A stretch of DNA of 30,134 bases from Eledone cirrhosa (lineage: Eukaryota). Position numbers and translations under genes: made by a program. Position 1 is the first letter of the stretch, and each line of letters opens with the position of its first letter. The stretch is taken from NCBI GenBank assembly GCA_964016885.1, contig CAXHJY010001039.1:1-30134 (forward strand), written 5' to 3'. This document shows positions 14,290 to 18,757 of this stretch, piece after piece. The notes under the pieces are model-generated. The model did not search any database. It worked only from the letters and a program-made list of their open reading frames with translations, and had not been told where the DNA came from.

Positions 14290-17200
14290 AAAGGAATATA
14301 CGTAAAGGAATATACTAAGTAACGGTTCTTTTTGTTCTCGATTCAAACGATTCAAGAACAACGTTTAAAACACAGTTGTAGAATTAAAAACTAACTGAAA
14401 AGAAATATTACCCAAGCTGTGAATAACTTTAAATTTGATTCTGACAGAACTTTGTCGTAACTTTTAAAGAAGATCATCGACTATTTAAAAAAAAAAAATA
14501 CAAAATATTAGTGAATAGACGAACTCATCATGGCAAAAAGTACAAGTCTCCTTCGACCAAATCGCAATTACAACCGTTGTATACAGTGGAGCTACGAGCT
14601 TAACAAAGAATTATATGAAGCATACAAACAATCTGAACCCCAAAAGTTCGGTTTTATGCAAAGGCTAAAAACTTTATGGAACTCCAAACACCCAGAATTA
14701 GACTTTTCTCCAAAGCATCTAAATGAACAGGCAAAACGTATCATTAGATGTAAATTGATACATCTAACGGAATCGAGTGATACTACAAATACAGCCCTTG
14801 TAGACAACCACCCCACCTCCACTGACAGACAAAGAGAATGGCCAGCTAAATCTAACAGTGAACAGCTCACCAACAATTTTGCTGAAATCCATCCCACTTC
14901 CACTGAAGAACAGCAAGAAAGGTCAGCTGACTCTAGTAGTAATTGTCACCACATCAACAACGAGGCTGCAATTCATGACTCTACTGAACAAACAGAGCAC
15001 CAAAAACTTGTGGGCACCCTACAAGTGATATGGAACGATATGTTTCAAGAGATACACAGCCTTAATGTGAGTGACAGACCATACAACACTAGAGTCAGTA
15101 AAGAACCCACTAAATTGGAATTGGAAGCGGTGAACGAAATAGCTGGCAATTATCTGAAGGCTATACGATCTAAAGGTGTAGAAACGACATTTGAAACGCT
15201 CAATGTTTTGTTATATGTTTCAGCTGTCACATTGCTATCATATAACACACATCTAAAACCACGCAATCAAGATACAAACAGAAAGCCTGAACCAGCGTGG
15301 ATGCGAAATTTAAAAACCAAAATTTTGTCTCTGAGACGAAGTATCTCACACATCGCAGTCGTTATGAAATGCAACATAGAGAGAAACTTCACACGACACC
15401 AGGAAGACCTAAAGAAAAAGTTAGAGAGACGATTTGGAGATACCAAATTTAAAACTTTGAACTCCAAATTACACCAGTTGAAACAACAACTCACAGCTAC
15501 AACAGAAAGACTAAAATATAAGTCAACAGCCCATAAACGACAAGTGCTAAATAGATTGTTTGCCAGAGATCCTAAATCAGTTTATCGCAGCTTCGGTGGC
15601 AAAAGCTCAATCCCTGTAAACGACACCCCTTCAAAAGAACAGGTTGAGAACTACTGGAGATCTGTATGGGAAACGGATGACGGATTCAACAGACAAGCTA
15701 ATTGGCTAAAACAACTGGAACAGGACTACTGCCAACATGTCCGGACAAAACAATATGACATAGATGGGTCAATACTGGAAACAGCTCTACAGAAAATGTC
15801 GAATAGGAAATCGCCAGGCCCAGACCTCATTACAGGATACTGGTTGAAGAATTTCACTTTCTATCGGCAAGATCTCATACGGCTGTTTACAGAAACCATT
15901 AAGGGCACACAAGAACTGCCCAGATGGTTATCAACTGCCACTACTCTCCTCATTCCCAAAAATAGCCAAACCACCCTTGCTAAAAATTACCGCCCAATTG
16001 CCTGCCAAAACATCATGTATAAATTATATACTGGGTGCCTTAACCTGTTCTTACAGGATCACTGTGCTACCAACAACATCATAACACCTGAGCAAGCTGG
16101 TGGAAAGAGGGAGGTGTGGGGTTGCATAGATCACCTACTAACTAACAAAATGATTCAGGAAAAAACAACAAAGAATCGCAGAAACATGACTGTCGTGTGG
16201 CTGGACTATCAAAAAGCATTTGATAGTGTACCTCATGGGTGGATTATTAAGGCTTTACAGTTAGCTAAAGTCCCACAACCATTAGTAGCTGCTGTTGAAC
16301 GCCTGACCAAGAACTGGTACACCAATTTGATCCTTAGAGGTGAGAAGGAGCAGGTTAAGACTGATAGGATACATTACCAGAAGGGCATCTTTCAGGGTGA
16401 TAGCTTGTCAGTACTACTCTTCGTTCTCTCACTGAATCCACTATCTTACCTACTCAGGAAACAAGGTGGACAAAGAAGTGGGCCCAGAAGTATCTCCCAT
16501 CTTTTCTTTGTTGATGACCTGAAGTTGTATGGGCCAAATATCAATGACATCAAGAAACAATTGGACCTCATTACACAATTTTCAACCGACATCAAAATGA
16601 AATTTGGTGAGTCCAAGTGTGCATATTTGGCAGTAAAACGTGGAAGAGCTGTGCCCTCCTCTAGAAATCTAGATATGAACGGCCTGACAATACAACCTCT
16701 GCAGTCAGGTGACAACTACAGATATCTTGGACAGGATGAGAATGTCAGATATGATGGACCCATAAATAAGGAGAGAACCAGAACTGAATACCTCAGAAGA
16801 GTAAAAAAAATATGGTCATCAGAACTGTCAGCATACAACAAATACATTGCCCACAATACCTATGCTGTGCCAATTCTAACGCCAACATTTGGCCTACTGA
16901 ACTGGTCATTGCAAGAACTAAGTGAGATGGATGTTAGAACTCGAAAACTTCTCAGTGTTACTGGGAACTTTAACATCAATGGTGATGTGGATAGGCTATA
17001 CTTCTCACGCAAGGAAGGTGGCCGGGGTCTAAAATCAATATTAACAACATATGAGACCCGGATAGTAACACTGAAGCAACACCTTCAACAGAGAAAAAAG
17101 GTTGGCGACCATCTTGCTCAGGTTTATGAGCATGAAAAAAGAAATATCATTAGAATAGCGACTGATCTGGAGGAGAGATATGGAATAAAGCCTGATATAA

Positions 17201-18120
17201 ATCTCTCACCCAGAGAAATCGGAAGATCCTATTCAATGTTCAAACAAGAAAAAAAAATTGACCAATTTACAGAGAAAGTTGTGCATGGATACTTGAGGCG
17301 TAAAACACAGACCATAGAGGGGATAAACCACTCAAAAAGCCTGGCATGGAGTTCCGACAAGTTTATGACATCACACCTTGAGGGATATCTCTATGCAATA
17401 CAGGAACAAGAACTCCCTACCAAATATCTGCTGCACAAAAGAGGAGGGCCAGCAGCTGACAATAAATGTAGGCTATGTAAAACAAAGATCGAGGATGTAA
17501 GCCACATTGTTGCCAGCTGCGAAAGAATGTCATCTCGCTACTACCTCCCCATGAGACACGATGGGATAGCTAGAACTATCTGGAACGCACTTCGGAAAAC
17601 AAAATTAACAACAAACGAGGAAGAATATATTGAGACAGATGGCACTAAGGAATACTGGTGGAACCTGAAAATAAAAACTGCCACCAAATTAAAGCACAAC
17701 CGGCCTGATATTGTAGTTTGGGACCACACATTGAAAACGTGTTCTGTTGTGGAGATCAGCTGCCCACTTGATGTAAACGTTGTCAGAAAAATACAGGAGA
17801 AGGAGGACATCTACGGACCATTGATGAGGAGCTTACAAATCCAGTATCCAAGATACACCTTTAGCTTCATACCCATCATTATTGGTGCTACGAGTTATAT
17901 ACCAACCCGCTTGGACCAAAGTATGACCGAACTTGGATTTGCGGACAAAAAGCGCAGCTCCCTAATTCATAGTCTACAAATGGCTGCGATAGCTGGCACC
18001 TTCAAAATATGCAAAACATTCTTGCGATTCAAGGGATGACAATTTCTTTTCTTTTACAACCTTGCCACCAGGAAGGTGGCCGGTCAAAAAAATATACTCG
18101 AAATTAAGAGAAAGAGAAAA
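14290..18120 (+). mobile_element. Full-length R4/Dong-clade non-LTR retrotransposon (RLE type)
   Basis: ~240-nt 5' UTR, single intact ORF and ~80-nt 3' UTR with a stem-loop. Bounded by (CATA)n on the left and CATACATAC on the right. Confidence 0.9.
14530..18039 (+). CDS. 1169-aa reverse transcriptase plus restriction-like endonuclease polyprotein (R4/Dong clade)
   Basis: R4-type N-terminus (RxxWSxELN...LWxxKHP), RT motifs KSPGPD, NYRPIAC, WLDYQKAFDSVPH, GIFQGDSLS, FVDDLKLY and YRYLG. Also RKEGGRGL, CCHC knuckle CRLC..HIVASC, RHD, and nuclease NRPDIVV...VEISCP...K..KY-like motif. Confidence 0.96.
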   Translation: MAKSTSLLRPNRNYNRCIQWSYELNKELYEAYKQSEPQKFGFMQRLKTLWNSKHPELDFSPKHLNEQAKRIIRCKLIHLTESSDTTNTALVDNHPTSTDRQREWPAKSNSEQLTNNFAEIHPTSTEEQQERSADSSSNCHHINNEAAIHDSTEQTEHQKLVGTLQVIWNDMFQEIHSLNVSDRPYNTRVSKEPTKLELEAVNEIAGNYLKAIRSKGVETTFETLNVLLYVSAVTLLSYNTHLKPRNQDTNRKPEPAWMRNLKTKILSLRRSISHIAVVMKCNIERNFTRHQEDLKKKLERRFGDTKFKTLNSKLHQLKQQLTATTERLKYKSTAHKRQVLNRLFARDPKSVYRSFGGKSSIPVNDTPSKEQVENYWRSVWETDDGFNRQANWLKQLEQDYCQHVRTKQYDIDGSILETALQKMSNRKSPGPDLITGYWLKNFTFYRQDLIRLFTETIKGTQELPRWLSTATTLLIPKNSQTTLAKNYRPIACQNIMYKLYTGCLNLFLQDHCATNNIITPEQAGGKREVWGCIDHLLTNKMIQEKTTKNRRNMTVVWLDYQKAFDSVPHGWIIKALQLAKVPQPLVAAVERLTKNWYTNLILRGEKEQVKTDRIHYQKGIFQGDSLSVLLFVLSLNPLSYLLRKQGGQRSGPRSISHLFFVDDLKLYGPNINDIKKQLDLITQFSTDIKMKFGESKCAYLAVKRGRAVPSSRNLDMNGLTIQPLQSGDNYRYLGQDENVRYDGPINKERTRTEYLRRVKKIWSSELSAYNKYIAHNTYAVPILTPTFGLLNWSLQELSEMDVRTRKLLSVTGNFNINGDVDRLYFSRKEGGRGLKSILTTYETRIVTLKQHLQQRKKVGDHLAQVYEHEKRNIIRIATDLEERYGIKPDINLSPREIGRSYSMFKQEKKIDQFTEKVVHGYLRRKTQTIEGINHSKSLAWSSDKFMTSHLEGYLYAIQEQELPTKYLLHKRGGPAADNKCRLCKTKIEDVSHIVASCERMSSRYYLPMRHDGIARTIWNALRKTKLTTNEEEYIETDGTKEYWWNLKIKTATKLKHNRPDIVVWDHTLKTCSVVEISCPLDVNVVRKIQEKEDIYGPLMRSLQIQYPRYTFSFIPIIIGATSYIPTRLDQSMTELGFADKKRSSLIHSLQMAAIAGTFKICKTFLRFKG

Positions 18121-18129
18121 CATACATAC

Positions 18130-18378
18130 TTTATGTCTGATGGACAATCTCGAAAAGCTAAGATTTTCAAGCAACGAAAGTGACTAGCTAACATGCACTT
18201 TAGAAATGTAAGTGGAACAGTAAAAGTATGCAAGACTTTTCTAAAGTTAAACATTTAACTTATCACTGTTGTTGTTTACCAAATTCCAGCGATGGAACTT
18301 TATTCCTTTCGTAGAAAACAGATTTTTTATAGAAAGAATTTAAATGGTTCAAAACAAAATGTTAAAGTACTTGAACAC
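18130..18378 (+). mobile_element. 3' remnant of a second, diverged R4/Dong element
   Basis: Translates LMDNLEKLRFSSNESD*LTCTL / SGTVKVCKTFLKLNI*, paralogous to the end of the intact ORF (LDQSMTELGF...AGTFKICKTFLRFKG*). Followed by a short UTR and (CATA)n. Confidence 0.75.
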
Positions 18379-18757
18379 ATATGCATACATACATACATAC
18401 ATACATTTTCATGCATGCATATATATACATACACATTCATTCATACATACATGCATGTATATATAAGTGCAATCATACATCTACAAATGCAGGCACAAAT
18501 AACACACCCACTTGCACGTACAGAATCACATTCTTGTATATACACATATGTGCTCACACTCTAAGATAAACAGGTATACACACATATGTACTCTCATTTT
18601 TACATATACACACATGTGCTCACGTCTTTACATATAAACATATTTACTTACATACATATTCACATATATTTTCACATTCTTACATATACACACATATACG
18701 CAAATGTATTCACGCACTTACATATACACACATATACAAACACATATACGTTCATAT

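What the first reader, a model, noticed from the sequence alone, without database searches (positions are those of the whole stretch)
14290..18405. Intact R4/Dong RLE retrotransposon apparently targeting (CATA)n microsatellites
Seen: an uninterrupted 1169-aa ORF with all RT, zinc-knuckle and nuclease motifs, in a window where every other transposon is decayed. The 5' end abuts (CATA)n and the 3' end abuts CATACATAC with no poly(A). A second, diverged R4-type 3' remnant immediately downstream also ends at (CATA)n. Known: RLE elements are often sequence-specific (Dong: TAA repeats; R4: rDNA), and ACAY targeting is known for the unrelated APE-type Waldo elements. Inference: a young, potentially active element with ACAT-repeat specificity, of interest as a site-specific gene-insertion enzyme.
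Basis: partly seen in the sequence, partly recalled or inferred. Interest (0 to 1): 0.7.

Follow-up and report, generated by a model that had tools for sequence, protein, structure and literature searches.

The report
Young LINE targeting CATA microsatellites
A young jumping gene with many near-identical copies, in what is likely an octopus genome, sits inside (CATA)n repeats at nearly every insertion examined, while a relative in the same genome sits in TAA repeats, so it likely represents a new target sequence for a known class of site-specific elements.

Summary
Target specificity is real. The 1169-aa ORF (14530-18039) is an R4/Dong-type protein: Myb-like N-terminus, RT, CCHC knuckle, RLE nuclease. 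Among young copies elsewhere in the genome, 58 of 59 3' junctions begin CATA. 36 of 39 apparent 5' truncations and 10 of 10 full-length 5' ends abut (CATA)n; background is at most 0.65%, and none lie in the TATG orientation. The two flanks of a copy share locus-specific repeat variants, so insertions split pre-existing arrays; CATA is not a tail. A co-resident Dong family ends in TAA in 25 of 25 copies and falls in a separate subclade. One correction: this copy is not full-length, lacking about 400 nt of 5' UTR. The family is very young: 7 of 10 full-length copies have intact ORFs, median divergence 0.28%. Microsatellite targeting by Dong (TAA) and ACAY targeting by Waldo are known. Nine paper searches found no CATA-targeting R4; Repbase was not searchable. 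This scan noted analogous TAA/AAT Dong arrays in this genome before, but no CATA one. Verdict: new target variant of a known kind. Enzyme activity and expression are untested.

The parts
14291..18120 (+). Young R4/Dong-type LINE copy (family A), 5'-truncated by about 403 nt of UTR
   Evidence: 99.66% identical to a natural 4223-bp full-length copy from its position 401 on; junctions
14530..18039 (+). Single ORF, 1169 aa
   Evidence: AF2 model pLDDT 88.8; best fold matches are R2 proteins, E 1e-34
14587..14754 (+). Predicted three-helix Myb/SANT-like N-terminal domain (aa ~20-75), candidate DNA-recognition module
   Evidence: model pLDDT 87-97 over the core; VIA Z 5-6, rows mostly Myb/SANT/TRF/trihelix domains (middling Z); W20 present in all 58 of 80 aligned sequences that cover it; domain reported for R4/Dong in PMC7998251
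15952..16707 (+). Reverse transcriptase domain (FVDD at aa 660-663)
   Evidence: Pfam RVT_1 aa 475-726; conservation
17467..17520 (+). CCHC zinc knuckle (C980, C983, H992, C997)
   Evidence: aligns with the R2Tg knuckle
17701..17880 (+). Restriction-like endonuclease core (RPD..E..K..Y)
   Evidence: secondary structure
18040..18120 (+). 81-nt 3' UTR ending GAGAAAA, predicted to fold as a hairpin; no poly(A)
   Evidence: fold z = -3.3; no covariation support in 3 sequences
14211..14290 (+). Upstream perfect (CATA)n target array
14074..14210 (+). Duplicated 5' junction: CATA array plus a 56-bp copy of the element's first bases
   Evidence: 136-bp tandem duplication, 98%
18121..18129 (+). Downstream target remnant CATACATAC
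18130..18385 (+). Old R4-type 3' remnant (ORF end plus 3' UTR) of a decayed family, followed by CATA repeats
12482..13043 (-). Non-autonomous ~610-bp element X (RTE-like by recalled motifs), 5'-truncated, lying in the same kind of array in the opposite orientation
   Evidence: 96% to X; flanks
13586..13920 (-). Diverged relative of element X between CATA-rich tracts
   Evidence: 67% and 85% segments to X

Best explanation
This is a 5'-truncated but ORF-intact copy of a very young R4/Dong-type LINE family whose copies sit, in one orientation and one register, inside pre-existing (CATA)n microsatellites, likely because its protein nicks the (TATG)n strand and inserts by target-primed reverse transcription. 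Shown: insertion into pre-existing arrays, strand polarity, a fixed 3' register (A|CATA), youth, and a target that differs from the co-resident TAA Dong family. Inferred from R2 biology and the predicted fold: the Myb-like domain and RLE domain likely read the repeat; the RLE would cut the TATG strand at or one base from TATG^TATG; the RT would start at the structured 3' UTR. The cDNA is likely joined to the upstream array through 1-4 nt of microhomology. The longer perfect tract on the 5' side likely reflects a short target duplication or a need for upstream repeat.
For: 3' junction starts CATA in 58 of 59 copies. 5' junction 16-mers match CATA in 36 of 39 apparent truncations spread over reference positions 166-3774, and in 10 of 10 full-length copies. 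TATG orientation 0 of 49 on either side. Background 16-mers: CATA 0.65%, TATG 0.08%, TA 3.0% of 66,560. Variant 10-mers shared between the two flanks of one copy: 189 against a null of 63 +/- 17, reached in 0 of 20,000 permutations, n=45. Perfect 3' run varies from 2 to 79 nt. Same-genome control family: TAA 25 of 25 and CATA 0 of 25 at 3' ends. Family C (about 40-56% aa identity to A) has CATA first in 16 of 20 copies and lies with A in one subclade, SH-aLRT 100. Microhomology of 1 nt or more in 24 of 31 (30% expected), 2 nt or more in 16 of 31 (8% expected); 5' perfect tract median 39 vs 19 nt at the 3' side, p=0.0015. Fold matches R2 TPRT proteins. Contigs of other samples show CATA-type sequence after the same 3' end.
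Against: No biochemical test. The TSD test was inconclusive: 6 informative matches against 3.6 expected, p=0.12. The Myb-like fold match is only middling (Z under 6; no Foldseek hit at E<=0.001), and nothing here shows which domain sets the target. The tree is the quick version, without bootstrap and without named reference elements. In the old remnant family only 9 of 29 copies keep a recognisable CATA flank. Copies were the top-scoring hits, weighted to contigs C1-C4, not a random draw.
Confidence: 0.9

Rival explanations
1. CATA is an element-encoded tail, or is added by the RT at both ends, and no target is recognised.
For: The first four bases after the 3' end are nearly invariant; the 5' perfect tract is longer than the 3' one and than background arrays (median 39 vs 19 vs 11 nt), so some repeat synthesis or expansion at the 5' junction is not excluded.
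Against: The two flanks share locus-specific variants such as CAGA, CATATATA and CATT/TAAA types; the 3' run can be as short as 2-4 nt before a variant; truncation points all along the element abut arrays.
Confidence: 0.05
2. Insertion is loose (AT-rich or any microsatellite), and copies accumulate in CATA arrays through selection or chromatin.
For: A few flanks are mixed CATA/TA arrays (4 of 49 3' flanks also fit TA); passive accumulation has been proposed for Drosophila Waldo-A/B (PMC3812793).
Against: Strict strand polarity, base-exact 3' register, copies only about 0.3% diverged, TA arrays several times more common yet not used, and a sister family in the same genome that uses TAA only.
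Confidence: 0.03
3. Target choice comes mainly from pairing between a CAUA-containing read-through RNA 3' end and the nicked DNA, with a weakly specific nuclease.
For: There is no poly(A); transcripts from any copy would run into CATA repeats (inference); full-length 5' ends share one register, CATACA|ATGGCG in 9 of 10.
Against: R2-type RLE proteins are described as cutting their target specifically (PMC5035012), and the Myb-like domain is proposed as the R4/Dong determinant (PMC7998251); no RNA data here. This could act in addition to protein recognition.
Confidence: 0.15

Closest known systems
Dong, DongAg, DongBg and ostracod Dong1/2 (R4 clade; PMC3812793 and PMC7998251, passages read)
   Same: Single ORF with Myb/SANT-like N-terminus and no zinc finger, RT, CCHC knuckle, RLE; inserts into a microsatellite in fixed orientation.
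   Different: Target is (CATA)n, not (TAA)n. The CATA families fall in a separate subclade from the TAA-flanked elements, including a young TAA family in the same genome (about 29-31% aa identity over the ORF; tree).
WaldoAg1, WaldoAg2, WaldoFs1 (ACAY-specific, APE-type; PMC3812793, passage read)
   Same: Same class of target repeat (ACAY).
   Different: Unrelated nuclease (APE vs RLE); clade R1 (recalled); the shared target would be convergent.
Octopus Dong-R4 LINEs (PMC13282606 first third and passages; PMC9115989 passages)
   Same: Recently active Dong-R4 families in octopuses; 1129 recent insertions covering 4.73 Mb, about 4.2 kb each, close to the 4223-bp unit here.
   Different: No target sequence is given in the parts read ('target' occurs 0 times in PMC13282606). 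Whether these are the same families could not be tested.
R2 (R2Bm, R2Tg; PDB 8gh6, 9nl3, 9dou)
   Same: Same RT/knuckle/RLE architecture and fold; TPRT mechanism assumed from it.
   Different: R2 has N-terminal zinc fingers plus Myb and targets 28S rDNA; no C2H2 motif is found in the first 420 aa here.

Membership tests
R4/Dong clade | Single ORF with RT and a C-terminal CCHC knuckle plus RLE nuclease | tested here: met
R4/Dong clade | N-terminal Myb/SANT-like domain | tested here: met
   three-helix model, rows mostly Myb/SANT/TRF, Z 5-6; feature as described in PMC7998251; the fold score alone is middling
R4/Dong clade | No N-terminal zinc finger (unlike R2, NeSL/Utopia) | tested here: met
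   no C2H2/CCHC pattern in aa 1-420
R4/Dong clade | RT phylogeny groups with named R4/Dong/Rex6 references | tested here: inconclusive
   groups (SH-aLRT 100) with TAA-flanked RLE elements and insect proteins, away from more distant RTs (quick tree); no named reference sequence was available
R4/Dong clade | Site-specific insertion into rDNA or a microsatellite | tested here: met
Dong in the narrow sense | (TAA)n target | tested here: not met
   TAA at 0 of 49 junction pairs; the co-resident family does meet it, 25 of 25
R4 of nematodes | Insertion in large-subunit rDNA | tested here: not met
   flanks are microsatellites; no Rfam match in the window or in one full-length locus
R4/Dong clade | Target-site duplication | tested here: inconclusive
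   6 of 47 informative matches against 3.6 expected, p=0.12
Waldo (APE-type, ACAY) | APE endonuclease | tested here: not met
   no APE family match; RLE motifs and R2-like fold instead
Active retrotransposon | Expression, insertion polymorphism, nicking/TPRT activity | not testable with these tools
   youth only:

The most novel reading that the evidence does not exclude
An undescribed deep sub-lineage of R4 has switched from TAA to ACAY-type targets, converging on the target of the unrelated Waldo elements. It has kept that target across families that are only about half identical in protein. A young TAA family and a young CATA family now coexist in one genome, a natural pair for mapping RLE target choice by swapping Myb and nuclease domains. 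An RTE-like hitch-hiker uses the opposite strand of the same arrays.
Probability: 0.55. Interest if true: 0.6.

Novelty: new variant of a known kind. Interest (0 to 1): 0.45.

Why it matters
How RLE retrotransposons change targets is open. The Myb-like domain of R4/Dong is only proposed as the determinant (PMC7998251). Two young, ORF-intact R4 families with different repeat targets in one genome make that directly testable by domain swaps. It also adds a target to the R4 catalogue, a case of convergence with APE-type Waldo, and explains why octopod CATA microsatellites share flanking sequence. As an insertion tool it would be a multi-site microsatellite-targeting enzyme, not a single-site one like R2 (inference), so that value is modest.

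Tried and rejected
Full-length status of the window copy: rejected; 29 other copies extend upstream of its start. Element-encoded tail: rejected. TSD: inconclusive by count (p=0.12); the summed score is driven by one compound array, L156. 3' UTR covariation: 0 of 19 pairs with changes on both sides, only 3 sequences. Rfam: no ribozyme or other family at gathering score in L141 or the window. DNA search with the TAA family 3' end found nothing; the protein search worked. Autonomous partner of element X: none among the 150 top hits, all in frames of at most 102 aa. No close relatives in JGI metagenome contigs (best segments 21-47% identity); those with a readable 3' repeat were mostly TAA or A-rich and none CATA by eye. 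Cluster look-ups gave no host names for the closest proteins. Sequencing runs: no RNA holder listed. Whether this locus is empty in other individuals remains untested. Foldseek gave no hit at E<=0.001 for the N-terminal domain. Literature: searches found no CATA/ACAT-targeting R4. Repbase and the primary papers (Kojima and Fujiwara 2004; Xiong and Eickbush 1993; Fell et al. 2025) were not seen and may list such a family; supplements were not opened. Rows dropped before counts: the window's own locus; L128 and L129 (duplicates); 10 of 59 copies without a 5' junction in view; L028 and L140 left out; two more left out for short flanks.
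Full report
Observation. The ORF runs from 14530 to 18039 and encodes 1169 aa without a stop, with RVT_1 at aa 475-726. The RT (FVDD), knuckle (C980, C983, H992, C997), RHD, RPD and K..Y positions are conserved in an 80-sequence alignment. (CATA)n precedes 14291; the 3' end is GAGAAAA followed by CATACATAC. The downstream 18130-18385 stretch is the ORF end and 3' UTR of an old R4-type family whose copies are 70-81% identical.

The copy is not full-length. The 29 other copies retrieved with its first 270 bases all continue upstream of its start. 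A natural full-length copy is 4223 bp with the ORF at position 633; the window copy matches it from position 401 at 99.66%. About 400 nt of 5' UTR, presumably holding the promoter (inference), are missing. The junction carries a 14-bp self-duplication and was later duplicated as a 136-bp unit.

Family size and age. A 371-bp 3' query gave 996 first-look candidates, of which 40 were scored, all essentially identical; these are not copy numbers. A C-terminal protein query gave 150 scored hits at 99-100%, 22 of them (my count from the table, window included) in the same 1174-codon frame as the window copy. Seven of 10 full-length copies keep the 1169-aa ORF; median pairwise divergence among 11 copies is 0.28%, range 0.05-0.57%.

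Target test. I examined 59 young copies chosen by element sequence alone. The first four bases after the 3' end are CATA in 58 and CACA in 1. Of 49 with the 5' end in view, 10 of 10 full-length and 36 of 39 apparent truncations (reference positions 166-3774) have a CATA-type 16-mer directly upstream. Two of the three misses are an array followed by a short rearranged piece of element (L028, L151); the third is an alignment break inside the element (L140). None is in the TATG orientation. Background in 20 arbitrary 10-kb stretches: CATA 0.65%, TATG 0.08%, TA 3.0% of 66,560 16-mers; the CATA figure includes the flanks of one related copy.

Pre-existing arrays. The upstream and downstream flanks of the same copy share 189 variant 10-mers against 63 +/- 17 for shuffled pairs (0 of 20,000; n=45), and the perfect 3' run ranges from 2 to 79 nt. 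The insertion therefore splits an existing array.

Controls and lineage. A second young RLE family in this genome (1216-codon frame, about 29-31% identity) ends in TAA in 25 of 25 copies and CATA in none. Nine of 17 automated 5' calls are TAA and none CATA; some misses look like alignment breaks. A third family, C, ends in CATA in 16 of 20 copies. A family about 71% identical in DNA also ends at CATA in the one junction inspected closely (L006). The old remnant family keeps CATA in 9 of 29 copies against 1.9% of background windows. In a quick ML tree of 66 RT segments (SH-aLRT only; the careful search did not finish), families A and C lie in a 31-row subclade with support 100 and a 0.48 stem. 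The TAA-flanked elements and three insect proteins form a separate group, with weaker support (82). A and C are not sisters within the subclade, and the targets of its unnamed members are unknown. The nearest named protein is from Argonauta hians (65% over 60% of the query), so the host is likely an octopod (inference). Contigs from four other public runs (three studies) hold the element. The 3' end is followed by CATA-type sequence in the three runs that list loose ends there, and a contig of the fourth runs through the CATACATAC.

Protein. The AF2 model (pLDDT 88.8) matches R2 structures best (E 1e-34 to 1e-28), then L1 ORF2p. The N-terminal 86 aa fold as three helices. The best structural rows are mostly Myb/SANT/TRF/trihelix domains at Z 5-6, a middling score; Foldseek gives nothing at E<=0.001. 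This agrees with the Myb/SANT-like domain reported for R4/Dong in PMC7998251 (passages). No zinc finger precedes the RT.

Mechanism. Shown: polarity, register, pre-existing target, excess 5' microhomology (24 of 31 with 1 nt or more against 30% expected; 16 of 31 with 2 or more against 8%), and a longer perfect tract 5' than 3' (39 vs 19 nt, p=0.0015). Inferred from R2: binding by the Myb-like and RLE domains, a nick on the TATG strand, priming at the 3' UTR (predicted hairpin, z -3.3; no covariation support), and joining by microhomology. All the CATA families have A before CATA, so the nick is placed only to within one base. A target duplication would explain the asymmetry, but my test was inconclusive.

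Shared arrays. A ~610-bp non-coding element X lies in the same arrays in the opposite orientation. Its constant end and variable truncations point the other way, and it ends in a C2H2-like reading frame; the RTE origin is from recalled motifs. Of 30 copies, 18 have CATA-type sequence on the left and 23 on the right; among 14 truncated ones, 9 have it at the truncated end, and several others sit in TA-rich arrays, so it is looser. One copy and one relative lie in the window. No autonomous partner was found. Earlier notes of this scan describe the same two-polarity pattern on AAT arrays in this genome; look-ups found no note on a CATA R4.

What is known. Dong elements target TAA and Waldo elements ACAY (PMC3812793, passage). 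R4/Dong use rDNA or microsatellites, TAA in most insects, molluscs and cnidarians (PMC7998251). Most RLE clades are target-specific (PMC4640811, passages). Dong-R4 families are recently active in Octopus vulgaris (PMC13282606, first third and passages). A full-length Dong in O. bimaculoides showed no sign of recent activity (PMC9115989, passages). R4-Dong among molluscs is almost confined to cephalopods (PMC10294476, passages). PMC13580325, PMC5035012 and PMC7650587 (passages) add nothing on this target. Nine searches found no CATA-targeting R4. Repbase, the primary Kojima and Eickbush papers, Fell et al. 2025 and all supplements were not seen, and could already list one.

Verdict. It works like Dong and meets the tested R4 features, but not the TAA target. 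New variant of a known kind; interest 0.45.

Noticed in passing
window 12482-13043 and 13586-13920; L034:118-727; L170-L199: Abundant ~610-bp non-autonomous element X (2509 first-look candidates), RTE-like by recalled motifs, occupying CATA/TATG and TA arrays in the orientation opposite to the R4 family.
   Followed up: partly
L069, L220-L244, L325, L326: A young classical TAA-targeting Dong family with a 1216-codon frame coexists in the same genome.
   Followed up: yes
L200-L219, L328, L330, L333: A further R4 family (C), about 40-56% aa identity to the window element, also ends at CATA; its 3' UTR contains a degenerate CA/CATA-rich stretch.
   Followed up: partly
L141, L143, L145 and other full-length copies, first 10 bases: Full-length 5' ends begin (A/T)ATGGCG in one register after CATAC; this resembles a YY1 core site (recalled, untested). 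The 5' UTR holds internal direct repeats of about 65-70 bp.
   Followed up: no
sequencing runs X1-X11: Near-identical element sequence in runs under eight organism codes (share of words 0.26-0.70); in the laid runs X1, X5 and X8 the longest pieces mostly differ by about 1% (up to 3%). Related species, mixed samples or horizontal transfer cannot be told apart here.
   Followed up: partly
L168 (G000:C3:199889000-199898990): Tandem ~4025-bp segmental repeat that contains a truncated copy of the element with an internal CATA junction.
   Followed up: no
L143 / L059: A piece of 5' UTR (reference 1-409) joined to a fragment of element X, directly upstream of a full-length copy; it ends close to where the window copy begins (about 404).
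   Followed up: no
window 22078-23640: Decayed non-LTR RT fragments of another clade (HERO-like by recalled motif).
   Followed up: no
window 24463-25253 and 13197-13550: A GIY-YIG (Penelope-like) fragment with a neighbouring opposite-strand frame, and a Tc1/mariner-like transposase fragment (recalled motif).
   Followed up: no
window 8588-9720 and 11542-12201: A 24-bp minisatellite of 47 copies and a GGAT/GGCT-rich compound repeat.
   Followed up: no
window 19300-20110: Two ~200-bp direct copies of an AT-flanked sequence (about 19300-19500 and 19905-20105), seen by eye.
   Followed up: no
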